From IMG/VR virus record IMGVR_UViG_3300037307_000721: a stretch of DNA of 64,000 nucleotides; one strand, given 5' to 3'. This document shows, one piece after another, positions 2,968 to 53,588 of the stretch (its first letter is position 1; the number at the start of each line of letters is the position of its first letter). The stretch comes from a virus. A program made the translations under genes and the position numbers. The notes under the pieces are model-generated. The model worked only from the letters and a program-made list of their open reading frames with translations. It searched no databases and was not told the DNA's origin.

Positions 2968-3467
2968 TGGCAACGGTGCTTAACATCACGAACGGCAAGG
3001 GCTTTCGGTCGTGCACGCACGGGACCATCAAGCGGGTCGAACTGGACCCGGACGTGCCCGGCAAGCTGTACGGCGCAGCGGGCGCGTACCTGAAACCGCG
3101 CGACCTGGCCACCGTGGGCGCGCAGGTGTACGTGCCCCTGGCCGGTATCGCGCACGGCGCGGCGCACGGATTCCCGGGCACCGTGCTCAACTGGCGCATG
3201 CAGGACTACGGGTGCTGGTCGGCGGCCACGCTACGCAGGCGGGCGCGGCGCCTGGCCCAGCTCGTGCTCGACGGCTGGACCGTGGTGGTGGCTTGCCACG
3301 GCGGCCACGGACGCACGGGCACCGTGCTCGCAGCGGTCGCGGTCGAGCTGGGGATCGCGGGCGCGTGCTCGGACCCCGTGGCCTGGATTCGCGAGTGGTG
3401 CCCCTGCGCGGTCGAGGCTGAGGTGCAGGAGGACACGCTGGCCGCCCTCGCGTGGGGGCAGGAGTAG
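2967..3467 (+). CDS. Protein-tyrosine/dual-specificity phosphatase family protein
   Basis: CX5R loop VACHGGHGRTGT, C-terminal AVE-x3-Q; GTG start overlapping TAG, RBS GGAGG. Confidence 0.85.
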   Translation: MATVLNITNGKGFRSCTHGTIKRVELDPDVPGKLYGAAGAYLKPRDLATVGAQVYVPLAGIAHGAAHGFPGTVLNWRMQDYGCWSAATLRRRARRLAQLVLDGWTVVVACHGGHGRTGTVLAAVAVELGIAGACSDPVAWIREWCPCAVEAEVQEDTLAALAWGQE

Positions 3468-3470
3468 GCC

Positions 3471-3815
3471 ATGCGGACCACGCTCCTAGCGCTCGTGCTC
3501 GTGCTCGTGCCCGTGACCCCGGCCGAGCGCGCGCTCCGCGCGCGAATGCTCGGACCCGGGGCCAGGCGATACGCTACCCGACCCGTGCGACACGCGGCGC
3601 GGGTCGGGTGCGACGGGCAGCGGGGCACGGGGCACGGCCCCGGCCCCGGCCCTGGGGGCTCCAGCCGGTCAGCCGGCGCGGGGCAGCCGGGCTTTCAGGG
3701 GCAGCCGGGCTTTCAGCCGCGGGAAGGTTCCAAGTCCGGAGCGCAAACCGGACTCGCGGGATCGATACCCGCTCGCGGCACCGATGGCAACGCACAGGAG
3801 GAATGCCATGAGTAG
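3471..3815 (+). CDS. Possible small secreted low-complexity protein (GQPGFQ x2)
   Basis: RBS GGAG, hydrophobic N-terminus; remainder low complexity. Confidence 0.4.
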   Translation: MRTTLLALVLVLVPVTPAERALRARMLGPGARRYATRPVRHAARVGCDGQRGTGHGPGPGPGGSSRSAGAGQPGFQGQPGFQPREGSKSGAQTGLAGSIPARGTDGNAQEECHE

Positions 3816-4938
3816 CGCAGCGACGACGAATTCTGGAACGATTACGGTAACATTGCCCGAGTCCCTGGGATCGTGGACGGGCACGATCCACGCGGCTATC
3901 GCGATCTTGAACCGCCCGGCCGCTGGCGTGTACGGGTTGCGGCTCAAGTCCGTGCTCGAGTCGCACCCCGAGGTCAAGCTCCAGACCGCGGACCTGGACG
4001 CGCTGTTGACGGCGGCGCAGGCGCTCGGCGAGCGGCTCGTGCGGCTGGCCTGGTGGTCCAACCCGCAGCACGACGCGGGCTGGCAGTCGCGCGCGGTCAA
4101 CGCGGCGCGGGCGCTGCTCGCCAGCGCTGGCACGTCAACCCCCGTTCGGTCCGAGCTGGAAGCGCGCGTGCGCGACGGCGAGCGCGTGGTGAACATGAGC
4201 GCGTCCGGCGGCGCGAAGCGCTGCGCGGCTGAGTGGCGCAGGCTGAGCGCGGAGGCGAGCACCGAGGGCACCCCGCTGAGCTGGAAGGAGCACGCGCCCC
4301 GGCTGCGCGCGGCCGTGTGGCAGGCGATGGGCCTGGCGCAGTCGCGGCGCGTGGCCGAGCTCGACGAGGAGTGCGAGTCGCCGCGCCCCTGGACGCCTGG
4401 CGCCCCGCCCCCGTGCGGCGGCATCACGTCCGGCGAGCTGGCGAAGCGCGACCCGCGCGAGATCGCGGGATGCTTCCCGGTGCCTGACCCCGTGCACGCG
4501 ACCCGCGCGGCGTACAAGGCGAAGCACGAGCGCAAGGCGCACTACCAGCGCGTGCGCGCGGCGCGCATGAAGCGCGAGCGCGCGGCCACCGTGGCCTGGC
4601 TCGCGGCCAACAAAAAGACGCGCGCGAGGGTCGAGCTGGCCCCGTGCGATGGCTCGTGCACGGACCCCCGGCGGACCGAGGACCACGCGGCGCACGTCGT
4701 GGCCTGGCGCGCGGAGCAGGCGAGGATCGCGCGGCGCGCGAAGCAGGCGCGCGGCGCCGTGGACTGGCGCGACCCGGGCTTGCGCGACTTCGAGGGCAAC
4801 CCCCGCCCGGCGCGCCCCGTGTGCTCGTGCTGCAACATGAGGCTCCCGCTCCGGCTGGTCGCGGGCGATACCGTCGCCCCCGAGGTCGAGTGCCCCGCCT
4901 GCAACGCGCTGCTGCTGCTGCTGCTGCTGCTGTCCTAG
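3808..4938 (+). CDS. Hypothetical protein with C-terminal Zn ribbon (CSCC...CPAC) and poly-Leu tail
   Basis: RBS AGGAGG, codon bias. Confidence 0.75.
   Translation: MSSAATTNSGTITVTLPESLGSWTGTIHAAIAILNRPAAGVYGLRLKSVLESHPEVKLQTADLDALLTAAQALGERLVRLAWWSNPQHDAGWQSRAVNAARALLASAGTSTPVRSELEARVRDGERVVNMSASGGAKRCAAEWRRLSAEASTEGTPLSWKEHAPRLRAAVWQAMGLAQSRRVAELDEECESPRPWTPGAPPPCGGITSGELAKRDPREIAGCFPVPDPVHATRAAYKAKHERKAHYQRVRAARMKRERAATVAWLAANKKTRARVELAPCDGSCTDPRRTEDHAAHVVAWRAEQARIARRAKQARGAVDWRDPGLRDFEGNPRPARPVCSCCNMRLPLRLVAGDTVAPEVECPACNALLLLLLLLS
4909..4932 (+). repeat. (CTG)8 trinucleotide repeat
   Basis: Read directly. Confidence 0.95.
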
Positions 4939-14497: not shown

Positions 14498-14794
14498 ATG
14501 CCGTGCGACACCCGCTACATCCAGGAGCAGCAGCGCAAGGAGCGCGAGGCCGCGCTCGCCGAGCTCCAGCGCCAGATCCAGCAGGGCAAGATCATCCTGG
14601 AGAAGGCGCCCAACGGGCAGGTCCGCATCCGCAACTGGGGCGAGACGGTGACCGCGAAGTCCGGCTGGCACGAGAGCTGTGTGCTCGACAAGATTGCTCG
14701 GTCGGGCAACTGGCTCATCAAGGCCAAGCTCAAGGCACTGGGTATCGACGCGAAAGCATTGATAGAACAGCACGCGGCCAACCACAGGCGTTGA
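14498..14794 (+). CDS. Small MPCDT-type protein, probable partner of the AAA+ ATPase; 3' end recoded by HNH cassette
   Basis: RBS AAGGAG; codon usage changes after ~14690; paralogous tail at 15819-15935. Confidence 0.8.
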   Translation: MPCDTRYIQEQQRKEREAALAELQRQIQQGKIILEKAPNGQVRIRNWGETVTAKSGWHESCVLDKIARSGNWLIKAKLKALGIDAKALIEQHAANHRR

Positions 14795-14821
14795 CATAGC
14801 AACCGACTTTCACGTACTGTA
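14792..14821 (+). promoter_or_regulatory. Promoter TTGACA-N18-TACTGT built on the upstream stop codon
   Basis: Read directly. Confidence 0.6.
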
Positions 14822-14833
14822 TCAGTATGCGAG

Positions 14834-14992
14834 ATGGCCATGACGAAGAAGCGCGACGACGAGAAAGCATTGCCGGTCTGTCATTGCGAACGTTGCGGAC
14901 ACGACTGGCGCCAGCGCAAGCCGGGCAAGCCGGTGCGCTGCCCCCGTTGCGGAAGTCCCTACTGGCAGACGCGGCCTCGCTCGCCACGTTGA
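14834..14992 (+). CDS. 52-aa Zn-ribbon protein (CERCGHDW...RCPRCGSPYW); below ORF-track cutoff
   Basis: Translated by hand; CxxC-x17-CxxC. Confidence 0.75.
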   Translation: MAMTKKRDDEKALPVCHCERCGHDWRQRKPGKPVRCPRCGSPYWQTRPRSPR

Positions 14993-15822
14993 GAGCACAG
15001 GTGCTTGCGCGACGTGGGCTCGCGCTCGAACCATGGTTCTGGCGGCAAGTGCAGAGGCGCGGCGAGTGCTGGTTGTTCCGACCAGATGGCAAAGGCGATC
15101 GATACAGCCGCGTGTATGTAGACACCGGCGATGATCCAACCAGCATGCCGGCGCATCGATTGGCCTATGCCCTGGTCTACGGCCCGGTGCCGGTCGAATT
15201 GTACGTCTGCCACGAGTGCAATGTGAAGCGCTGCGTGCGCCCTAGCCATCTCTACTTGGCAACAGCGCGGCAAAACACATTGGATGCGCTTCGTGACGGT
15301 CTCATGCCACACGGCGAGTCGCATGGCATGGCGCGCCTGACACTCAAGCAAGTGCGCTGGGTGCGACGGATGTACAACATCGGTGAATTGAGCACGGTTG
15401 GGCTAGCCGAGAAGTTGGGGACCACACATGGCGTGATCTCCAACATTCTGCGTGGCGTGACTTGGGCTTTCGACTTGCAAACCGATGGGCATGCGGATCG
15501 TCGTGTTTCGAGCTTCGCGCCGCGGCGAAAAATCGATCCCGAGCGCAAGCTCTTGGCTGCGCAACTTTACCTCGGTGGACTCCGAGCCGCCGAGGTAGCC
15601 GAGGAGCTCGACGAATCCGAAGGGCTCGTGAAGACGTGGCTGCGCGATGTGGGTGCTAGAAAGGACCGTTGGGCGAAGCCTGATGAGCTCGTGCTGGCCG
15701 AGCGGCTGTATTGGGCTGGCGTAAGCACCAACGAGATCGGCCGGCGCTTGGCGCGCAGCCAGGGCACGATCAAGTATTGGGTATTCATCCACGGATGGAA
15801 ACGGCGGAAGGCGGATCGGTGA
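14989..15822 (+). CDS. HNH endonuclease with C-terminal HTH-like repeats
   Basis: FWRQV..CW..AHRLAY..VCHECN..CVRPSHL..N; TTG start overlapping upstream TGA (start uncertain). Confidence 0.85.
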   Translation: MRAQVLARRGLALEPWFWRQVQRRGECWLFRPDGKGDRYSRVYVDTGDDPTSMPAHRLAYALVYGPVPVELYVCHECNVKRCVRPSHLYLATARQNTLDALRDGLMPHGESHGMARLTLKQVRWVRRMYNIGELSTVGLAEKLGTTHGVISNILRGVTWAFDLQTDGHADRRVSSFAPRRKIDPERKLLAAQLYLGGLRAAEVAEELDESEGLVKTWLRDVGARKDRWAKPDELVLAERLYWAGVSTNEIGRRLARSQGTIKYWVFIHGWKRRKADR

Positions 15823-15935
15823 CCATTACCTTCAGGTGTGGCACGTGGCTCGCGAAGCAGCGGCTCGAGGCCATGCTCAAGCCGTTGGGCATGAAGCCGA
15901 AGGACCTCATCGCCGCCCACGGACACGAGCACTAG
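15819..15935 (+). pseudogene. Stranded original 3' end of the 14498 gene
   Basis: RCGTWLAKQRLEAMLKPLGMKPKDLIAAHGHEH aligns with RSGNWLIKAKLKALGIDAKALIEQHAANH. Confidence 0.75.
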
Positions 15936-18421: not shown

Positions 18422-19006
18422 ATGGGAAGGAAAAGACCAAGCGAGTTCAAGTGCAAGAAGTGCGGCGGCCCATGGACCAAGGATAGCGCCAAGGGGCTCT
18501 GCGCCAGGTGCTACCATCGCGCATGGGTCGCGGCCAACCGCGAGCGGGACAGGGCGCACAAGAGCGCGCACTACGAGCGCGGCAAGCGCGCGGGCCTGCC
18601 CGCGCAGCAGCGAGACAAGCGCTACTTTGACGGCAAGCGCGCCCGCGCCGTCGAGCGCGATGGCTCACGCTGCGCGAAATGTGGGCGTAAGGTGCGCACG
18701 AAGGGCAGCTTGATCGTCCATCACAAGGACGGTCGTGGGCGTGGATGCGCGCAGCCAAACAATCGGCTGAGCAACCTGGAGACAGTCTGCCGCCGATGCC
18801 ATCCGTCACAGCACAAGTTGCGTCGGTGGTCACGGCAGCATGATGCCTGCCGGATCTGCGGCAGAGAAGATCGCAAGCACAATGCACACGGCCTCTGCGT
18901 CGCGTGCTACAGCCGCCTAGAGTATCAAGGCGAGCTCGCAACCTTCATCGAGCGAGGTACAGAATGTCCGGCAACGAGAAGAAGACCGCCATCCAGAAGG
19001 GCCTGA
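18422..19006 (+). CDS. HNH endonuclease with Zn-finger arms
   Basis: RCAKCG...LIVHHKDG...NNRLSNLETVCRRCH; lower GC; upstream TTGACA on AAA stop codon. Confidence 0.85.
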   Translation: MGRKRPSEFKCKKCGGPWTKDSAKGLCARCYHRAWVAANRERDRAHKSAHYERGKRAGLPAQQRDKRYFDGKRARAVERDGSRCAKCGRKVRTKGSLIVHHKDGRGRGCAQPNNRLSNLETVCRRCHPSQHKLRRWSRQHDACRICGREDRKHNAHGLCVACYSRLEYQGELATFIERGTECPATRRRPPSRRA

Positions 19007-20247: not shown

Positions 20248-21117
20248 ATGCCACAGGACATCTTCAAGTGCAAGAGCTGCGGAAGTCCCAACATGAAGGG
20301 GCGGGCGAGGGGCCTCTGCCGACGGTGCTACCTGGCCGACTACAAGCGATGCAACGCCGCGCGCTTGAGGGCGCGACAGAAGGAATACGCCGAGGGTTGG
20401 TACCGACGGAACGCACGGCAGAAGCGCGCGAGCGTGCTCGCCTATCGCACCGGAGGCAACCGGGAGCGAGCATTGGAACGGGCTGGCTATCGCTGCGAGA
20501 AGTGCGGCGAGCGCCGGCATCGCCTGTTGGGCGTGTGGCATCTGGACGGACGCAACTGGCGGCACGAGCAGCCCAACCACGCGATCGGGAACCTGATCGT
20601 ACTGTGCCGTCACTGCGCTCCGATCATCTTGCTTCGCCATGGCTGGAGCGACGAGCCGGGTTGCTATCCACGGTGCCTGAACTGCGAGCGAATCGACCGG
20701 TCGCACATGGCGCACGGCCTCTGCACCGCCTGCTACCAACGCCTGGGTTCATCTCAGCGGTTGTTCATCCGCGAGGTCCGGGCGGAGGACGCAAGCGAGG
20801 CCGACCGTGCGCGGTTCTGGCAGCACGTGGATCGTCGCAGCTCCGCGCCGTGCTGGCTATGGACCGCCTCTGGCACCGATGGGGGCTATGGCTATGCGAG
20901 GGCAGGGCGCGTCAGGGTGCTGGCGCACAGACTTTCTTTCGCATTGGCGAACGGGGCGGCCGAGCAGAACGTGCTGGTGTGTCACTCGTGCGACACGCCG
21001 GAGTGCGTGAACCCCGCGCACCTCTTCGCCGCCACATCGGAAGACAACATCCAGGATGCCATTCGCAAGGGACGCATGCGTTGGCAACGAAAGGATCAAC
21101 CCGATGACCATCCGTGA
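20248..21117 (+). CDS. Double-domain HNH endonuclease
   Basis: N-half paralogous to 18422 HNH; C-half RFWQHV..CWLWT..AHRL..CHSCDTPECVNPAHL..N. Confidence 0.85.
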   Translation: MPQDIFKCKSCGSPNMKGRARGLCRRCYLADYKRCNAARLRARQKEYAEGWYRRNARQKRASVLAYRTGGNRERALERAGYRCEKCGERRHRLLGVWHLDGRNWRHEQPNHAIGNLIVLCRHCAPIILLRHGWSDEPGCYPRCLNCERIDRSHMAHGLCTACYQRLGSSQRLFIREVRAEDASEADRARFWQHVDRRSSAPCWLWTASGTDGGYGYARAGRVRVLAHRLSFALANGAAEQNVLVCHSCDTPECVNPAHLFAATSEDNIQDAIRKGRMRWQRKDQPDDHP

Positions 21118-27452: not shown

Positions 27453-27905
27453 ATGCGCTTCCACGTCGTGAGTCGGGAGGAGGCCTGCCGGTGGAACCCG
27501 GTGGGCAAGCCGCACGTCATCATCTCGGTCACCTCGCCACCGGATCCGGAGGCGGAGGTCAAGCAGAACGAGCACACGCGCGGCGTGCTTCGTCTCGGCT
27601 TTCACGACTTGGACCAGGAGCCCGGGCCGATCTTCCGCAAGGTCTACGGCGAGCCGGTCATGTTCACCGAGGAGATGGCCAGGGCCATCGACTCGTTCGT
27701 GGCTCAGCATGCCGCGGACATCGAGACCGTGATCGTGCACTGCGACGCCGGACACTCTCGCTCGCCGGCCATCGCCGCGGCACTGGCGCATCGCTACAAC
27801 GAGCCGAGCGTGAACGACTGGTTCTTCAAGCATCGGACGCCAAACCGCTTCGTCTACCGCACGCTCCTCGAGGTGCTGATGGACGAGGGGACGAGGAAGT
27901 CATGA
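27453..27905 (+). CDS. Predicted protein-tyrosine/dual-specificity phosphatase
   Basis: HVIISVT, LRLGFHD (general-acid Asp), VIVHCDAGHSRSPAIA, PN-x2-VY. Confidence 0.88.
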   Translation: MRFHVVSREEACRWNPVGKPHVIISVTSPPDPEAEVKQNEHTRGVLRLGFHDLDQEPGPIFRKVYGEPVMFTEEMARAIDSFVAQHAADIETVIVHCDAGHSRSPAIAAALAHRYNEPSVNDWFFKHRTPNRFVYRTLLEVLMDEGTRKS

Positions 27906-27976
27906 AGGTTCGCATCGAGCAAGACGACAACCCGATGAACCCCCGCGAGGAGTTCGACAACCTGGAGATCTGTTGA
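27902..27976 (+). pseudogene. Stranded original 5' end of the 28538 gene
   Basis: MKVRIEQDDNPMNPREEFDNL matches KIVRDENPLNPREEFDHL; native RBS and ATGA coupling. Confidence 0.8.
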
Positions 27977-28620
27977 CCGATTCGGCAACTTGTGTAAGCC
28001 TTTGCACTAGGTTGTCGAACCGGAGGTCGGAAGTGAACAGGAAGACCAAGCGCGGAACGACCGCGACGCGCAATCGTGCGAAGGCGAAGGCTTGGCGCGA
28101 CGCCAATCCCGACAAGGTGCAAGCCTATGAAGAGCGTCGCGCAGAGAAAAAGCGGGCCTACACACGCGCTTGGAACGCTGCGCACAAAGAGCAGAGGCTC
28201 AGCTACTGGCGAGAGTACTATCGAACGCATCCTGAGCGGCGCGCGTACTACAACGAGCGCGGGAAGGCCAGGCGGCGACAACGCGAGCATGCACTGCGAT
28301 TGCGCGTGTTGGCCCATTACGGATCAGTCTGCGCCTGCTGCCAGGAGTCGACACTCGAGTTCCTGACAATCGATCACATCGAGGGCGGCGGTGTGCAGCA
28401 CAGGAAGGGCATACCCAGCGGGAACATCTACCGTTGGCTAGAAGCCAACGGTTACCCAGCAGGATTCCGCGTCCTGTGCATGAACTGCAACTGGGCCACG
28501 CGGTGGGAAGAGACCTGTCCGCACCAGAGAGACACAAGTGCCAAACGCCAAAATAGTCCGAGACGAAAACCCGTTGAATCCTCGTGAAGAGTTTGATCAT
28601 CTTGGGACAATGGTCTGCCT
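27965..28620 (+). mobile_element. HNH homing-endonuclease cassette 4 (HNH + replacement 5' gene end)
   Basis: Lower-GC segment between two versions of one N-terminus; boundaries approximate. Confidence 0.8.
28033..28587 (+). CDS. HNH endonuclease
   Basis: CACCQE..FLTIDHIEGGG...VLCMNCN; RBS GGAGG before GTG. Confidence 0.85.
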   Translation: MNRKTKRGTTATRNRAKAKAWRDANPDKVQAYEERRAEKKRAYTRAWNAAHKEQRLSYWREYYRTHPERRAYYNERGKARRRQREHALRLRVLAHYGSVCACCQESTLEFLTIDHIEGGGVQHRKGIPSGNIYRWLEANGYPAGFRVLCMNCNWATRWEETCPHQRDTSAKRQNSPRRKPVESS

Positions 28621-29080
28621 GCACAAGCGGTACGAGCTGGGCGACGAGCACACCATCAAGGCCGACGACTTCATCTGCTGGGAGTCCATCGAGAAGCACC
28701 TGCGCGAGAAGCTCGGAGCCGTCGTGGTGCTACCGCTCTACCTGTTCGACCACAGCGGCATCACCATGAGCACCGACTCGTCCGGGTTCCGCGCGGCCGA
28801 TTCCGCCGGCTGGGACTGGGGCCAGGTCGGCTTCATCTACGCCACCCGGGAGGCCGTGCTCGCGAACTTCATGAAGAAGCGCCTCAGCAAGGCCATGCTC
28901 GAGCAGACCGCGGCCGTGCTGGTATCCGAGGTGGAGGTCTACGACCAGTACCTCCAGGGCGACGTGTGGGGCTACATCATCGAGGACGACGCGGGCAACG
29001 TGGTCGACTCCTGCTGGGGATTCTTCGGAGAGCAGTACGCCAAGGAGGAGGCTGCGCTCGCACTACAGGGCGCCGGCTGA
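28538..29080 (+). CDS. Conserved mobile-element protein (NPRE.FD.LG...DHSGI...GQVGFIY...DSCWGFFG) with recoded 5' end
   Basis: GTG start inside HNH 3' end. Confidence 0.8.
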   Translation: MPNAKIVRDENPLNPREEFDHLGTMVCLHKRYELGDEHTIKADDFICWESIEKHLREKLGAVVVLPLYLFDHSGITMSTDSSGFRAADSAGWDWGQVGFIYATREAVLANFMKKRLSKAMLEQTAAVLVSEVEVYDQYLQGDVWGYIIEDDAGNVVDSCWGFFGEQYAKEEAALALQGAG

Positions 29081-50212: not shown

Positions 50213-50565
50213 TGGCCTGGAAGCGCGCCAAGGGCAACGGCCGGCTCTTCTCCGAGAAGCAGAAGGACCGCATGGTCCAGATGGTGCTCGACGGCAAGAG
50301 CAAGGCCGAGGTCATCAAGGAGGTCGGTTGCCACCGCTCGTGCCTGGACTACATCCTGGTCGAGCGGTTCGGCACGCCCACGGTCAAGCCGGGCATGAAG
50401 CCGAAGGGCGCCAAGAAGATCGACGTCGAGGAGACCGGGCCGGCGCTCGACGAGGGTGAGCGTGACTACCTGCTCTGGGCACTTCGAGGGGCGCTCAACA
50501 AGGTCGGGGGCGCGAGCTATGTCGACCGGCTCATCGCCGACATCCGGGATGGCCGACTGGATTGA
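50212..50565 (+). CDS. HTH DNA-binding protein
   Basis: FSEKQK..MVQMVLDGKSKAEVIKEVGCHRSCL. Confidence 0.75.
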   Translation: MAWKRAKGNGRLFSEKQKDRMVQMVLDGKSKAEVIKEVGCHRSCLDYILVERFGTPTVKPGMKPKGAKKIDVEETGPALDEGERDYLLWALRGALNKVGGASYVDRLIADIRDGRLD

Positions 50566-51352
50566 GCCTCCGCCGCGCCCCTGCGTGGGCTGCAGCTACT
50601 GCTGCAAGGTGGCGCCCTGCATCCCGGGCTTCCTGGTCTACGGGCCGGGCAAGCCCTGTGGGGCCCTGCGCTGGGACGCCCGGGGCGGGCGCTACCTCTG
50701 CGGCGTCGTGCTCGACGAGCCGGAGCGCACCCGAGACAAGCTGAAGGAGCAGATGGCCATCGGCGCCGGCTGCTCGTCGCCGCTCTTCAACGAGGAGCGA
50801 GAGAGGATGATTCAGATGACACGCGGCAAGATCAAGGACACGCACGCCGGGGTCAGGCTCGTGGAACGCCTCGACGGGGTCGTCTCGCTCGAGGAGCTGC
50901 GCAAGCGCCTCACGGACGGGGACGTCGAGTACCTGCGCCGCCAGTCGGTGACGCGCTCGCTCTGCCGAACCGCGGCCCCGGATGGCACCTGGGTCTACAT
51001 GGTGGTGAATCGCAAGACGAAGAGCATCATCACCATCCTGACTCAGGAGCTCGCCGAGGAGCTCTACAGGCAGATCGGCCGAGACCCACGGGAGCTCAAG
51101 CTCGTCCCGCCCGACCTCAAGCAATGCCAGGGTGAGAAGCGCGAGGGAGGCCCGTACTCCTTCATGACGCTCGGGCCAATCCCGCCCCTGAAGCGCTGCA
51201 CGAACGCGCCGACCGTCGTCGTGCGCGAGACCAAGCCGGCCGAGGACGGACTGCAGGGTTCGATGTCGCTCTGCGACGAGTGCCTCGAGGCCTTTCGGAA
51301 GCAGAACCCGCACGCCAGCTACAGCGTGAAGGAGATCAAGCGCGATGGGTAG
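50549..51352 (+). CDS. Three-module protein: CxxCxxCC cluster + HAxxRxxER domain + Zn ribbon
   Basis: CVGCSYCC; THAGVRLVER; C...C...CDEC. Confidence 0.75.
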   Translation: MADWIEPPPRPCVGCSYCCKVAPCIPGFLVYGPGKPCGALRWDARGGRYLCGVVLDEPERTRDKLKEQMAIGAGCSSPLFNEERERMIQMTRGKIKDTHAGVRLVERLDGVVSLEELRKRLTDGDVEYLRRQSVTRSLCRTAAPDGTWVYMVVNRKTKSIITILTQELAEELYRQIGRDPRELKLVPPDLKQCQGEKREGGPYSFMTLGPIPPLKRCTNAPTVVVRETKPAEDGLQGSMSLCDECLEAFRKQNPHASYSVKEIKRDG

Positions 51353-52130
51353 CATCCAGATCGAAGGCATCCTCATCAGCAAGAACCGCAAGACGGGCTG
51401 CTCCATCAACGTCGACCAGTGCACGCCCACCCCGTGGTGCCGGCCGCACTGCTACCGCTGTTTCCGCGACGAGGTCATCATCGCCGAGAAGGGCTGGGAC
51501 ACGACGCCGAACTCGGGGCCCATCACCTGGCGCACGCAGCGCGAGTCCTACAAGCGCAACGAGCGAGCCATCATGCTGGCCGGCCAGGAGGGCAGGCTCG
51601 ACACCGCGGCCGCGCTCATCGCATGTCGGCTGAAGGACCCGGACCCGCTGCGCGGCAACGGCACGGGCGACCTGTTCCCCGAGCTCTGCGAGCTCTACGC
51701 CCGCATCGCGTTCCACGGCAAGCCGGTGTTCCTCTTCTCGCGCCGGCCGGCCATGATCCGCGAGCTCCTCGACGTCTGCGATGGGTTGGAGCTCGATCCG
51801 GCGAAGCGGCCGTTCGTCCTGGGGTCCATCGACCCCTCGACCACGCTCTGCGAATGCCACCAGCTCGTCGAGGCCACGGCAGCGATCAACGGGCGCCCGG
51901 TGCTGGCCTACGCTACGGACAAGGGCGGAGGCATGGGCTGCGGCGAGGTTCGGGCGCATCGCTTCAGCCAGTACATCCAGGTGGTCTTCGGCTACCACAC
52001 GAACTTCATCAAGACCGTGATTCCGCATCCGCTGGCCTGCCCAGCAACCAACGGGCGGCCAATCCACTGCCGCGAATGCCGAAAATGTTTCGGACTTGAC
52101 CAGGACACTCCAACGGTTCGACAATGTTAG
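51345..52130 (+). CDS. GP88-like (radical-SAM-derived) phage protein with recoded 3' end
   Basis: N.KTG.S..CTPT..C..HCY, LRGNGTGD, FLFSR, SID, CPAT..C..C..C. Confidence 0.7.
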   Translation: MGSIQIEGILISKNRKTGCSINVDQCTPTPWCRPHCYRCFRDEVIIAEKGWDTTPNSGPITWRTQRESYKRNERAIMLAGQEGRLDTAAALIACRLKDPDPLRGNGTGDLFPELCELYARIAFHGKPVFLFSRRPAMIRELLDVCDGLELDPAKRPFVLGSIDPSTTLCECHQLVEATAAINGRPVLAYATDKGGGMGCGEVRAHRFSQYIQVVFGYHTNFIKTVIPHPLACPATNGRPIHCRECRKCFGLDQDTPTVRQC

Positions 52131-52827
52131 TATCGTTGTCATGCCACAAGGAGTGCCCATGGGAAAGTACTCGGTGCGCTGCCGCGCGTGCGGCGCGCGA
52201 TTGGGTGCGATCACCGCCGCGCACGTTCGCGGACACGGAATGACTCTAGTCGCCTACATGCGCCGTTTCGGCGGCCCGCTAACCGCCGAGCTTGTGCGCC
52301 AGAGTCGAGGAAGAGCCAAGTCGCCGGAGCAGCGAAAATCGCTAGCCGAACGATTCTGGGAGAAGGTATCGCGTGGGGCTGAGGACGAGTGCTGGCTGTG
52401 GACCGGCGCCGGGGCTCGCACGAGCCGCTACGGCAACCTGATCCGCCCCGACGGCCAACACGCGCAGGCGCATCGCGTGGCGTGGGAGTTGGCGCATGGG
52501 CCCGTGCCTGACGGATTGCAGGTACTCCACACTTGCGATCATGGACTATGCGTCAATCCTGCTCACCTGTTTCTTGGAACGCAGCTCGACAACGTGTTGG
52601 ATATGGAACGCAAGGGCCGCCACGGGCGCGGCTACCAACTGGCACCTGGCTGCCGCCAAGGCGAGTGCAATGGCAATGCCAAGCTCACGGAGAAGCAGGT
52701 GCGACTGGCTAAGCAACTGGCGGCGCGTGGCATGCGCCCGTGCGACATACAAGAGCGGACAGGCATCAAGAAGAACACGCTGTTTCACATTCTGAGCGGA
52801 CGCCAGTGGACGCATGTCGAACCATGA
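52020..52827 (+). mobile_element. HNH homing-endonuclease cassette 5 (replacement 3' gene end + HNH)
   Basis: Lower GC; two versions of the gene tail flank the HNH; boundaries approximate. Confidence 0.85.
52141..52827 (+). CDS. HNH endonuclease with N-terminal C2H2-like motif and C-terminal HTH
   Basis: RFWEKV..CWLWTG..AHRVAWEL..HTCD..CVNPAHLFLGTQLDN. Confidence 0.9.
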   Translation: MPQGVPMGKYSVRCRACGARLGAITAAHVRGHGMTLVAYMRRFGGPLTAELVRQSRGRAKSPEQRKSLAERFWEKVSRGAEDECWLWTGAGARTSRYGNLIRPDGQHAQAHRVAWELAHGPVPDGLQVLHTCDHGLCVNPAHLFLGTQLDNVLDMERKGRHGRGYQLAPGCRQGECNGNAKLTEKQVRLAKQLAARGMRPCDIQERTGIKKNTLFHILSGRQWTHVEP

Positions 52828-52900
52828 GAAGGAGTGCCCCGCGACGGCCGGACAGCACGTCAAGTGCACCGAGTGCCGGCGCTGCTTCGGGCCGGAATGA
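52823..52900 (+). pseudogene. Stranded original 3' end of the GP88-like gene
   Basis: HEKECPATAGQHVKCTECRRCFGPE* vs HPLACPATNGRPIHCRECRKCFGLD. Confidence 0.85.
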
Positions 52901-52956
52901 GCTTGATCTATCCCATGCCCTAGCGGCAGAATGTCCTCGAGGTATAGGAGAAAGCC

Positions 52957-53262
52957 ATGAAGAAGATCGAGGGACTCAACAGCAAAGAGCAGGTGCTTCT
53001 CAACGTCTTCGCCGACGGGAAGGAGCACACCATCCGCGAGCTCAAGAAGCTCTTCCTCCACGAAGCGGCGGCCCGTCTGGCCGGGCACTACAAGGGCTGG
53101 GGCAAGAAGGATGTCGACGCCACGGCCCAGAGCTACGTGCGCAACTCCCTGCGCAAGCTCGTCGCGCAGGAGTGGATCGAGCTCGTCGGGCGCGGGACCT
53201 ACAAGCGCACCGACAAGGCCGCCGACCGGTTCCGCCGGCTGAAGCAGAAGAAGGCCGCCTGA
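52957..53262 (+). CDS. Winged-helix-like DNA-binding protein
   Basis: RBS AGGAG; VRNSLRKLV..WIE..GRGTY. Confidence 0.75.
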   Translation: MKKIEGLNSKEQVLLNVFADGKEHTIRELKKLFLHEAAARLAGHYKGWGKKDVDATAQSYVRNSLRKLVAQEWIELVGRGTYKRTDKAADRFRRLKQKKAA

Positions 53263-53263
53263 C

Positions 53264-53588
53264 GTGCTGATCTACAAGTACGTCCTCGAGAAGAAGTACG
53301 GAGAGCAGACGATCGAGATGCCCTACATCTCGGTGCCCATCTCGTTCGGCCTGGACCCGCAGGGGCAGCTCTGCGTCTGGTGCCTGGTCGACACCTCGCA
53401 GCCCAAGACGCACGGGGGCGCGACGGACAACACTCGTCCACCGCTTCTTCGTGGGCCTGACGGGGCACGAGGGGCCGAGCCTCCCACTCGACGTCCTGCG
53501 CCGGGCGACGACATTCCTCGGCACGGTGAACGACGGCGGCTACATGCTGCACGGCTTCTACATGGGGTTCGAGCAGCCGAAGGCATAG
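53264..53588 (+). pseudogene. Small phage gene (IYKY.L...W.LVD...GTV) with apparent extra base in G run 53414-53418
   Basis: Removing one G restores ...TTLVHRFFVGLTGH...FLGTV..MLHGF to TAG 53586-53588. Confidence 0.7.

What the first reader, a model, noticed from the sequence alone, without database searches (positions are those of the whole stretch)
51990..52900. HNH cassette inside a GP88-like gene supplies a recoded 3' end; the original tail is stranded behind it
The 51345 gene ends HPLACPATNGRPIHCRECRKCFGLD..., in the lower-GC codon style of the HNH element. Directly after the HNH stop, 52823-52900 encodes HEKECPATAGQHVKCTECRRCFGPE* in native codon style, with no start of its own. The same Cys spacing appears twice. 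Inference: the endonuclease inserted into the gene and kept it functional by carrying a divergent copy of the displaced end, which also destroys its own target site. No intron is needed. Comparable end-replacement is established for some fungal mitochondrial homing endonucleases (atp6, rps3). Repeated use in one phage-like genome may be undescribed.
Basis: partly seen in the sequence, partly recalled or inferred. Interest (0 to 1): 0.88.

Follow-up and report, generated by a model that had tools for sequence, protein, structure and literature searches.

The report
HNH homing cassette replacing a gene end
A selfish DNA-cutting (HNH) gene sits inside the last codons of a phage gene. It keeps that gene whole by bringing its own, differently spelled copy of the gene's end and leaves the original end stranded behind it. 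This intron-free trick is published for yeast and fungal mitochondria, and I found no published phage account of it.

Summary

**Layout.** Window 52023-52822 is a cassette of about 800 bp:
- 35 replacement codons plus a stop (52023-52130);
- a 28-nt spacer with a Shine-Dalgarno site;
- an intact HNH_3 endonuclease gene (52159-52827).

It lies in frame at codon 227 of a 252-codon, Cys-rich phage gene with a radical-SAM-like fold. The Pfam GP88 link is weak. The native last 25 codons are stranded at 52823-52900.

**Evidence.**
- HNH-less orthologues (82-91% identical in the body) carry the stranded-type tail (22/23, 20/23 and 18/23 identical). They match the in-frame tail at only 12-14/23.
- GC3 is 0.93 in the body, 0.54 in the new tail, 0.72 in the HNH and 0.88 in the stranded tail.
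- The new tail keeps every family-invariant residue.
- No intron model matches.

**Reading.** This is most likely an intron-less, end-replacing homing element that works like yeast WHO elements and fungal mitochondrial mORFs. Cleavage of the empty allele and absence of splicing are untested.

**Wider pattern.** Two further cases in this window hold up: a 5' end at 27.9-28.6 kb and a 3' end at 14.7-15.9 kb. In the 5' case a relative keeps the replaced end beside a decayed HNH. I found no donor and no second occupied allele for this cassette. This scan has already reported the same layout on other phage and archaeal DNA.

The parts
51345..52022 (+). Native body of the host gene (codons 1-226). 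It is a Cys-rich protein with a radical-SAM-like partial TIM-barrel fold.
   Evidence: It is 87.5% identical in DNA to L001 and 82% to L002, and its GC3 is 0.934. The protein is 82-91% identical to P0001-P0003. The AF2 model has pLDDT 91.7. The top VIA hits are nearly all radical SAM enzymes, Z 8.5-7.
52023..52130 (+). Cassette-borne replacement tail: 35 codons plus a TAG stop, in frame with the host gene.
   Evidence: GC3 is 0.543, and it is 58% identical in DNA to the stranded tail. It keeps all family-invariant tail residues (C232, P233, T235, G237, C242, C245, C248). Its best match is the tail of the distant homologue P0017, at 16/23.
52096..52125 (+). Sigma-70-like promoter match (TTGACC, 18 nt, GACAAT) inside the 3' extension of the replacement tail, upstream of the HNH gene.
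   Evidence: It is the only such match in 50300-53400, where shuffles give 0.2. This is a consensus match only.
52131..52158 (+). Spacer carrying the Shine-Dalgarno site AAGGAG (52148-52153) of the HNH gene. A predicted hairpin pairs the SD with upstream ACUCC.
   Evidence: Sequence. The fold of 52015-52165 has z = -2.3.
52159..52827 (+). Free-standing HNH_3 homing endonuclease gene (222 aa). Its TGA stop is built from the first bases of the stranded native tail.
   Evidence: Pfam HNH_3 at 1.4e-13, covering profile positions 2-45 of 46. phrog_1872 at 4e-34, with C-terminal DNA-binding matches. GC3 is 0.721. Outside this genome no relative exceeds about 60% identity, and the matches at 50-60% cover under half of the protein.
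52823..52900 (+). Stranded native tail of the host gene: 25 codons plus a stop, with no ribosome-binding site.
   Evidence: It is 22/23 identical to the tail of P0002, 20/23 to P0001 and 18/23 to P0003. GC3 is 0.88, and it is 78% identical in DNA to the L001 tail.
52023..52822 (+). The whole inserted cassette (replacement tail, spacer and HNH), about 800 bp. Junctions are good to about 3 nt, and the cassette displaces the Gly codon that precedes His-Glu-Lys in orthologues.
   Evidence: Codon-by-codon comparison with L001 and L002.

Best explanation
Window 52023-52822 is an intron-less, end-replacing homing element.

Structure:
- A free-standing HNH_3 endonuclease gene has entered codon 227 of a 252-codon phage gene.
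- It came with a foreign, synonymously and non-synonymously diverged copy of the last 25 codons of that gene.
- The host ORF now reads straight from its native body into the cassette-borne tail and stops. The protein, including its invariant four-Cys C-terminal cluster, is therefore made without RNA or protein splicing.
- The HNH is translated separately from its own Shine-Dalgarno site, and possibly from its own promoter.
- The native tail is left untranslated behind the HNH.

Inferred mechanism:
- In a mixed infection, the enzyme nicks or cuts the uninterrupted allele near the junction.
- That site does not exist in the occupied allele. It is split by 800 bp, and the replacement tail is only 58% identical to the native one.
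- The break is repaired from the occupied genome. The gene body serves as the left homology arm and the stranded tail plus downstream DNA as the right arm.
- This copies the replacement tail and the HNH into the recipient.

Shown: the structure, the foreign origin of the tail, the native identity of the stranded tail, and the existence of empty alleles.
Inferred: cleavage specificity, protection by recoding, function of the hybrid protein, and absence of splicing.
For: (1) Two homologous tails bracket an intact HNH_3 gene.

(2) HNH-less orthologues carry the stranded-type tail. Its identity to them (96, 87 and 78%) tracks the body identity (89, 91 and 82%). The in-frame tail is 52-61% identical, as distant as homologues whose bodies are about 50% identical.

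(3) There is a sharp compositional switch exactly at the junctions. GC3 goes 0.93, 0.54, 0.72, then 0.88.

(4) The replacement tail keeps all seven family-invariant residues. Against the P0017 tail (L003), its first ten codons differ only at third positions, a coding signature.

(5) Only 28 nt of the cassette lie outside an ORF. No Rfam intron or other RNA family matches at E<=10 locally or at gathering score anywhere in the window. The HNH is in a different frame and lies behind a stop codon, so it is not an intein.

(6) The same architecture and the same GC3 signature recur twice in this window. One case has a different HNH family (phrog_2255). In both, homologues match the stranded piece.

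(7) At the 5' case, a relative (L086) keeps the low-GC3 replaced start (GC3 0.33 against a body of 0.84) next to a remnant of about 95 nt of the HNH 3' end. The replaced end therefore stays in use after the nuclease decays.

(8) The HNH protein of this cassette was called on 3 contigs, the longest 193.6 kb, so an assembly artefact is unlikely.

(9) The mechanism has experimental precedent in yeast WHO elements (PMC7282813). It has a structural precedent in fungal mitochondrial mORF hybrid genes (PMC3630166).
Against:
- Among 15 homologue loci, none but the window has two tails, so recurrent homing at this particular site is not shown.
- No close relative of this HNH and no donor of the replacement tail was found.
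- The stranded tail is still fully intact. That fits a recent insertion, but it would also fit a tail that is still used, for example after splicing.
- Rfam's group I model can miss divergent phage introns, and HNH_3 genes do sit in spliced phage introns (ICP1, PMC10448857).
- The function of the host protein is unknown, so activity of the hybrid cannot be judged.
Confidence: 0.78

Rival explanations
1. One-off mosaic junction. Illegitimate or homeologous recombination with a distant phage brought in a foreign segment that happened to contain a gene tail plus a neighbouring free-standing HNH. The HNH does not target this gene and was only a passenger, or it cuts elsewhere.
For: No second occupied allele and no donor was found for this site. 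Phage HEGs are known to sit at recombination boundaries (PMC10448857). The first creation of any such cassette must have been an illegitimate event of this kind.
Against: Three independent loci in 64 kb show the same precise architecture, with the nuclease exactly between a recoded end and the native end. Two different HNH families are involved. The junctions fall at the same codon on both sides. A relative shares the 5' cassette. Chance association of passengers is a poor fit for that regularity.
Confidence: 0.12
2. Hidden self-splicing (group I) intron. About 52023-52820 is removed from the mRNA, joining the body to the native tail. The in-frame tail is then only an intron-internal relic.
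For: The stranded tail is perfectly intact. A U precedes 52023 and a G lies at 52819, so an in-frame join is formally possible. HNH_3 genes occur in spliced phage introns (PMC10448857). The 5' 150 nt fold somewhat better than shuffles, z = -2.3.
Against: There is no Rfam intron match at E<=10 or at gathering score. Only 28 nt are non-coding, and the HNH ORF runs to the 3' junction, leaving no room for a 3' ribozyme core outside coding sequence. An intron gives no reason for an in-frame homologous tail that keeps all invariant residues and shows synonymous-only differences to a family member. All three cassettes in the window carry such a duplicate. In L086 the replaced 5' end is the one kept after HNH decay.
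Confidence: 0.06
3. In-situ tandem duplication of the tail, followed by divergence and a later HNH insertion between the copies. Alternatively, an assembly chimera.
For: Direct repeats can arise by slippage. The source is a metagenome assembly.
Against: The in-frame copy has foreign codon usage (GC3 0.54 against 0.93) and 58% DNA identity, while the other copy stays 96% identical in protein to an orthologue. That asymmetry does not fit in-situ divergence. The HNH protein of this cassette was called on 3 contigs.
Confidence: 0.03

Closest known systems
WHO elements at the aldolase gene FBA1 of Torulaspora and Lachancea yeasts (Coughlan et al. 2020, PMC7282813; Osborne et al. 2026, bioRxiv 10.64898/2026.08.13.744650)
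   Same: - An endonuclease gene lies between the working 3' end of the host gene and a duplicated, displaced fragment of that end.
- Integration replaces the 3' end with an allelic variant, so no splicing is needed.
- The duplicated fragment serves as the downstream homology arm.
- Resistance to cutting comes from sequence differences.
- The host gene becomes a chimera whose two ends have different histories.
   Different: - The nuclease here is HNH_3, not a LAGLIDADG/intein-derived zinc-finger fusion, so there is no homology.
- The host is a phage-like genome, not a yeast nucleus.
- The replaced piece is only 25 codons, against half of FBA1.
- No cluster of serial elements is seen at this site.
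- Cleavage is not tested here.
- The same genome also holds a 5'-end version, which those papers do not describe.
Mobile endonuclease ORFs (mORFs) that create hybrid genes in fungal mitochondria: Allomyces macrogynus atp6, and Glomus sp. atp6, atp9, cox2 and nad3 (Beaudet et al. 2013, PMC3630166, citing Paquin et al. 1994)
   Same: [quoted passage not shown]
- The native copy is closest to sister taxa (91-98% in DNA) and the inserted copy is far (64-81%).
- Several genes are hit in one genome.
- The Glomus atp9 layout, with a separate ORF behind a stop, is the closest match to this one.
   Different: - Those are LAGLIDADG or GIY-YIG nucleases in organelle genomes.
- In some of them the ORF is fused in frame to the host gene.
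- Here the nuclease is an HNH with its own ribosome-binding site in a phage-like genome.
Intronless homing by free-standing endonucleases of T4-like phages (SegF, SegG, SegB, MobE; reviewed in PMC2988022 and PMC2993671)
   Same: - A free-standing nuclease gene in a phage.
- It spreads by cutting the nuclease-less genome in a mixed infection, followed by recombinational repair with co-conversion of flanking markers.
   Different: - Those genes sit between genes, or split a gene into two working pieces (Aeh1 nrdA, PMC3045599 abstract).
- The T4 mobile-element review I searched does not use 'duplicat', 'remnant' or 'pseudogene' at all, and the T4 genome review does not use 'duplicat'. So neither describes a duplicated, recoded gene end.
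HNH_3 endonuclease genes inside spliced introns of phage ICP1 tape-measure and terminase genes (Barth et al. 2023, PMC10448857)
   Same: The same nuclease family interrupts conserved phage genes.
   Different: There the host gene is restored by RNA splicing, shown by RNA-seq and RT-PCR, and no duplicate of the displaced exon is carried. Here no intron is detectable and the gene is complete without splicing.

Membership tests
End-replacing homing elements (WHO-element / mitochondrial mORF type; a functional class, not a homology family) | The endonuclease gene lies between a working gene end and a displaced duplicate of that same end. | tested here: met
   The two tails are at 52023-52130 and 52823-52900, around the HNH at 52159-52827.
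End-replacing homing elements (WHO-element / mitochondrial mORF type; a functional class, not a homology family) | The displaced copy is the native one (closest to element-free relatives) and the in-frame copy is a diverged or foreign allele. | tested here: met
   The stranded tail is 22/23, 20/23 and 18/23 identical to P0002, P0001 and P0003, while the in-frame tail is 12-14/23. DNA identity is 78% and 69% against 54% and 53%, and GC3 is 0.88 against 0.54.
End-replacing homing elements (WHO-element / mitochondrial mORF type; a functional class, not a homology family) | Element-free alleles of the host gene exist in relatives. | tested here: met
   L001 and L002/L075 carry a 252-codon gene with no HNH and a single tail.
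End-replacing homing elements (WHO-element / mitochondrial mORF type; a functional class, not a homology family) | The host gene is complete without RNA or protein splicing. | tested here: inconclusive
   The ORF is complete and keeps all invariant residues. No intron model matches. The HNH lies behind a stop codon and in another frame. No RNA data were obtainable.
End-replacing homing elements (WHO-element / mitochondrial mORF type; a functional class, not a homology family) | The endonuclease cuts the element-free allele and spares the occupied or recoded allele. | not testable with these tools
   This needs an in vitro or in vivo cleavage assay.
End-replacing homing elements (WHO-element / mitochondrial mORF type; a functional class, not a homology family) | The same cassette is found at the same site in other genomes (evidence of spread). 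| tested here: not met
   At this site, none of 15 homologue loci has a second tail, there is no close HNH relative, and there are no pattern hits. At the 5' case in the same window the feature is met, through L086.
WHO protein family (LAGLIDADG/intein-derived, zinc finger) | Homology of the nuclease to WHO/HO/VDE. | tested here: not met
   The nuclease is HNH_3 (PF13392) and matches HNH PHROGs. It works like a WHO element but is not a member of that family.
HNH_3 homing endonucleases (PF13392) | HNH_3 domain scoring above the Pfam gathering score, with full profile coverage. | tested here: met
   50.7 bits against a cut-off of 24.8, covering profile positions 2-45 of 46. phrog_1872 matches at 4e-34.
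Group I intron with an internal homing endonuclease gene | A ribozyme core flanking the ORF, detectable as RNA structure or sequence. | tested here: inconclusive
   No Rfam hit at E<=10 in 51000-53500 and none at gathering score in the window. Only 28 nt are non-coding. Divergent introns can escape the model.
Intein | An in-frame insertion without stop codons, translated as part of the host protein. | tested here: not met
   A TAG stop at 52128-52130 precedes the HNH, which is in a different reading frame and has its own SD and ATG.
Pfam GP88 (PF17338), the family proposed for the host gene | A match to the family profile. | tested here: inconclusive
   The window protein has no match at E<=1. 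Of 22 homologues, 3 match weakly (best 3.2e-4) and 4 match DUF7227 weakly.
Radical SAM superfamily, for the host gene | A partial TIM barrel with a Cys triad after the first strand (canonical CxxxCxxC). | tested here: inconclusive
   The top structural neighbours are nearly all radical SAM enzymes: 4fhc at Z 8.5, 5tgs at 8.4, 5vsl at 7.8. The invariant triad is C26-x5-C32-x3-C36 rather than CxxxCxxC. Z values near 8 are borderline, and Foldseek gave no hit at E<=0.001.

The most novel reading that the evidence does not exclude
Free-standing HNH endonucleases of this jumbo-phage lineage routinely travel as 'self-healing' cassettes. Each carries a recoded copy of whichever gene end it displaces, 3' or 5'. 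Conserved phage genes can then be invaded without introns or inteins, and their ends acquire separate evolutionary histories.

If this is general, the 'third category' of homing element, described in 2020-2026 as a rare yeast peculiarity, is an ordinary and old strategy in phages (and, from other notes of this scan, in archaea). It would also be an unrecognised source of chimeric phage genes and of mis-called gene starts and ends.
Probability: 0.55. Interest if true: 0.75.

Novelty: new variant of a known kind. Interest (0 to 1): 0.6.

Why it matters
- **A third route for homing nucleases.** These nucleases are thought to enter coding sequence safely only inside self-splicing introns or inteins. 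End replacement is a third route, published for yeast WHO elements and called 'considerably more rare', and for fungal mitochondria.
- **A broader kind.** This is a clean phage example with an unrelated nuclease family (HNH_3). The same 64 kb also hold a second 3' case and a mirror-image 5' case. The kind is therefore broader in host, nuclease family and geometry than published.
- **Annotation.** Gene callers mis-start or truncate such genes. Here the 28.5-kb gene is called from an internal Met, and a stranded fragment looks like junk.
- **Phage evolution.** The two parts of one gene have different ancestries.
- **A natural model.** It is a 'cut and rescue' drive that protects its carrier by recoding the target.

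Tried and rejected
- **Intron.** An Rfam E-value scan of 51000-53500 gave only three chance-level hits, none of them an intron. A whole-window scan at gathering score gave nothing.
- **Intein.** Excluded by the stop codon and the change of frame.
- **Whole genome.** None is held for this window.
- **Closest empty allele.** The DNA of the P0002 contig could not be fetched because the sample file was too large.
- **Other occupied alleles.** Fifteen homologue loci from the look-up of encoding contigs and from the viral and metagenome scans each have a single tail.
- **Donor of the cassette.**
  - HNH relatives in IMG/VR are at most 51% identical, and none lies beside a host-gene homologue.
  - In the 5.8-billion-protein search, no hit outside this genome exceeds about 60% identity, and those matches are partial.
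  - A degenerate DNA pattern for the first ten codons of the replacement tail found nothing in viral contigs.
  - The same pattern gave one out-of-frame chance hit in a bacterial MAG.
- **Cultured phages.** tblastn of the host protein against 50,697 phage records gave no match.
- **Host-gene fold.** Foldseek against the PDB gave only weak TIM-barrel hits. The VIA wide search gave radical SAM enzymes at borderline Z.
- **Published phage precedent.** Five full-text searches and targeted reading of five phage papers found none.
Full report
**What is there**

On the + strand a 261-codon ORF runs from 51345 to 52130. It is followed by a 28-nt spacer carrying AAGGAG, and then by a 222-codon ORF from the ATG at 52159 to the TGA at 52825-52827. 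The second ORF is an HNH_3 endonuclease:
- Pfam gives 50.7 bits against a cut-off of 24.8, covering nearly the whole profile.
- phrog_1872 matches at 4e-34.
- There are further matches of its C-terminal part to DNA-binding PHROGs.

From 52823 to 52900, in a third frame, 25 codons and a stop repeat the end of the first ORF with the same Cys-x9-Cys-x2-Cys-x2-Cys spacing. In a self-comparison of all 1256 six-frame fragments of the window this pair scores E 1e-5. It is one of only two short pairs that flank an HNH.

**Which tail is native**

The host protein has 28 relatives in the 5.8-billion-protein collection. The three closest are P0001, P0002 and P0003. They are 91, 89 and 82% identical over the body, are 252 residues long and have no HNH behind them.
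- Their tails match the stranded copy at 20/23, 22/23 and 18/23 positions, in step with the body identity.
- They match the in-frame copy at only 12-14/23, which is no better than homologues whose bodies are about 50% identical.
- At the DNA level the stranded tail is 78% and 69% identical to the tails in L001 and L002. The in-frame tail is 54% and 53% identical. The two copies in the window are 58% identical to each other.
- The best match of the in-frame tail is the tail of the distant homologue P0017, at 16/23. Against it, the first ten codons differ only at third positions.

So the in-frame tail evolved as a coding tail of this family in another lineage.

**Junctions and composition**

A codon-by-codon comparison with L001 and L002 places the left junction after 52022 and the right junction at about 52822. 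The cassette displaces the Gly codon that precedes His-Glu-Lys in orthologues. The TGA stop of the HNH is made from the first bases of the stranded tail.

GC3 values are:
- 0.934 in the native body;
- 0.543 in the replacement tail (35 codons);
- 0.721 in the HNH;
- 0.880 in the stranded tail;
- 0.90-0.94 in the neighbouring genes.

The inserted unit is thus about 800 bp and compositionally foreign. It consists of the replacement tail, a spacer and the HNH. The region's only sigma-70-like match lies inside the nine-codon extension of the replacement tail, 34 nt before the HNH start. A predicted hairpin pairs the HNH Shine-Dalgarno site (z = -2.3). Both are weak hints that the nuclease is expressed separately and under regulation.

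**Is the host gene still whole?**

The replacement tail keeps every residue that is invariant in the family tail: C232, P233, T235, G237, C242, C245 and C248. An AlphaFold2 model built on the family alignment is confident up to residue 252, with mean pLDDT 91.7.

An exhaustive structural comparison returns almost only radical SAM enzymes at the top, including spore photoproduct lyase, QueE, viperin, lipoyl synthase and PFL-activating enzyme, at Z 8.5 to 7. That fits the invariant N-terminal Cys triad, although the scores are borderline and Foldseek found nothing strong. Pfam GP88 matches only 3 of 22 homologues, weakly, and does not match the window protein.

The C-terminal four-Cys cluster is probably a metal or Fe-S site. 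That would explain why an insertion here is tolerable only if the tail is replaced. This last point is inference.

**Rivals**

- *Intron.* A self-splicing intron is the serious alternative, because HNH_3 genes do sit in spliced introns of phage ICP1 (PMC10448857).
  - Against it, no Rfam family matches at E<=10 around the site, or at gathering score anywhere in the window.
  - Only 28 nt of the insert are non-coding, and the HNH ORF runs to the 3' junction.
  - An intron gives no reason for an in-frame, selectively maintained copy of the displaced tail.
- *Intein.* Excluded by the stop codon and the frame change.
- *In-situ duplication.* It does not fit the asymmetry between a foreign-looking copy and a copy that is nearly identical to orthologues.
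- *Assembly artefact.* Unlikely, because the HNH protein of this cassette was called on three contigs, the longest 193.6 kb.
- *One-off mosaic junction with a passenger HNH.* It cannot be excluded for this site alone. I found no second occupied allele among 15 homologue loci, no close relative of the HNH and no donor of the tail.

**The pattern recurs in the window**

*5' case at 28 kb.*
- At 27899-27976 a 25-codon stub with native codons (GC3 0.85) is followed by an HNH-like ORF at 27973-28587 (phrog_2255).
- Then comes a gene that restarts at a GTG at 28538, with 24 low-GC3 codons (0.42) running into a native body (0.94).
- The 1259 homologues mostly begin like the stub, not like the current start.
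- One relative, L086 (70% identical), has the cassette-type start with the same unusual codons: GC3 is 0.33 against 0.84 in its body, and the start is 80-93% identical in DNA to the window.
- That start is preceded by a remnant of about 95 nt of the HNH 3' end, cut by a stop.
- So the cassette is shared by two diverged genomes, and the replaced end stays in use after the nuclease has decayed.

*3' case at 15 kb.*
- The small gene at 14498-14794 ends in a lower-GC3 tail (0.74 against 0.96).
- After the HNH, 15819-15935 holds a second tail with GC3 of 0.92.
- This second tail shares the four-residue insertion and the His-rich end of the closest homologues.

Three loci, two nuclease families and both gene ends argue that the nucleases drive these arrangements.

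**What is known**

Yeast WHO elements home into FBA1, replace its 3' end, use a displaced FBA1 fragment as the downstream homology arm, and need no splicing. Allele-specific cleavage has been shown experimentally (PMC7282813). In 2026 they were still described as a third category of homing element, 'considerably more rare' than introns and inteins.

Fungal mitochondrial mORFs do the same at atp6, atp9, cox2 and nad3. There the native C-terminus is close to sister taxa and the inserted one is distant, and four genes are hit in one genome (PMC3630166).

The phage literature I could search describes intronless homing between genes, gene splitting and spliced introns. It does not describe a duplicated, recoded gene end. 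The cassette here works like a WHO element or mORF but is not homologous to them, because its nuclease is HNH_3.

Other notes of this scan report the same layout on other phage and archaeal DNA. Within the scan it is therefore a recurring find, not a singleton. One of those notes says it is known from T4-like phages, which I could not verify.

**Verdict**

- Shown: the structure, the foreign origin of the in-frame tail, the native identity of the stranded tail, and the existence of empty alleles.
- Inferred: target cleavage, protection by recoding, activity of the hybrid protein and absence of splicing.

I rate it a new variant of a known kind. It is of moderate to good interest, mostly because it helps show that end-replacing homing elements are not a yeast or mitochondrial curiosity.

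Noticed in passing
window 27899-28630: This is the mirror-image 5' case. A native 25-codon stub (27899-27976, GC3 0.85) is followed by an HNH-like ORF at 27973-28587 (phrog_2255). A cassette-borne new start follows at the GTG at 28538 (24 codons, GC3 0.42) and runs into the native body. Homologues begin like the stub. The public gene call starts at an internal Met (P0029, 156 aa).
   Followed up: yes
L086:300-470: A relative of the 28.5-kb gene keeps the same low-GC3 replaced start (GC3 0.33 against 0.84 in its body). Just upstream is a remnant of about 95 nt of the HNH 3' end, ended by a stop. No native stub is visible. This looks like a decayed stage of the same cassette.
   Followed up: yes
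window 14498-15935: This is a third cassette. The small gene 14498-14794 ends in a lower-GC3 tail (0.74). An HNH_3 paralogue follows (domain at 15037-15465, ORF running to 15822). Then 15819-15935 holds a second tail (GC3 0.92) that resembles the closest homologues better, sharing their four-residue insertion and His-rich end. A 52-codon Zn-ribbon ORF (about 14840-14995) sits between the gene and the HNH.
   Followed up: partly
L010:2787-3735: In an unrelated IMG/VR contig, an HNH_3 ORF (2980..3621, + strand) is flanked on the minus strand by two 52-codon copies of a gene end (50% identical, E 1e-9). The copy next to the HNH has the HNH's GC3 (0.67) and the distal copy has 0.885. This may be an end-replacing cassette with the nuclease antisense to its host gene. 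The reading frame of the host gene body is unclear.
   Followed up: partly
L027:2977-4380 (also L035): An HNH_3 gene is directly followed by a lysozyme-like gene (3459..3917). Further downstream is a second lysozyme fragment without an ORF (4228-4380, 69% identical over 51 residues). This may be a whole-gene or large-end replacement with a decaying native copy.
   Followed up: no
window 18446-18919 and 20263-20745: Two regions share 43% identity over 169 residues. The second is the N-terminal half of an ORF whose C-terminal half is an HNH_3 domain (20815-21078), so this appears to be a fusion of two nuclease-type modules.
   Followed up: no
window 52096-52165: The only sigma-70-like match in 3 kb lies in the extension of the replacement tail. 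A predicted hairpin sequesters the Shine-Dalgarno site of the HNH. Together these suggest the cassette brings its own expression control.
   Followed up: partly
window 51345-52130 and homologues P0001-P0028: The host family has no curated annotation. It has invariant C-x5-C-x3-C and C-x9-C-x2-C-x2-C clusters and a radical-SAM-like predicted fold. In relatives (L002) it lies a few genes downstream of a TROVE/Ro60-vWA gene.
   Followed up: partly
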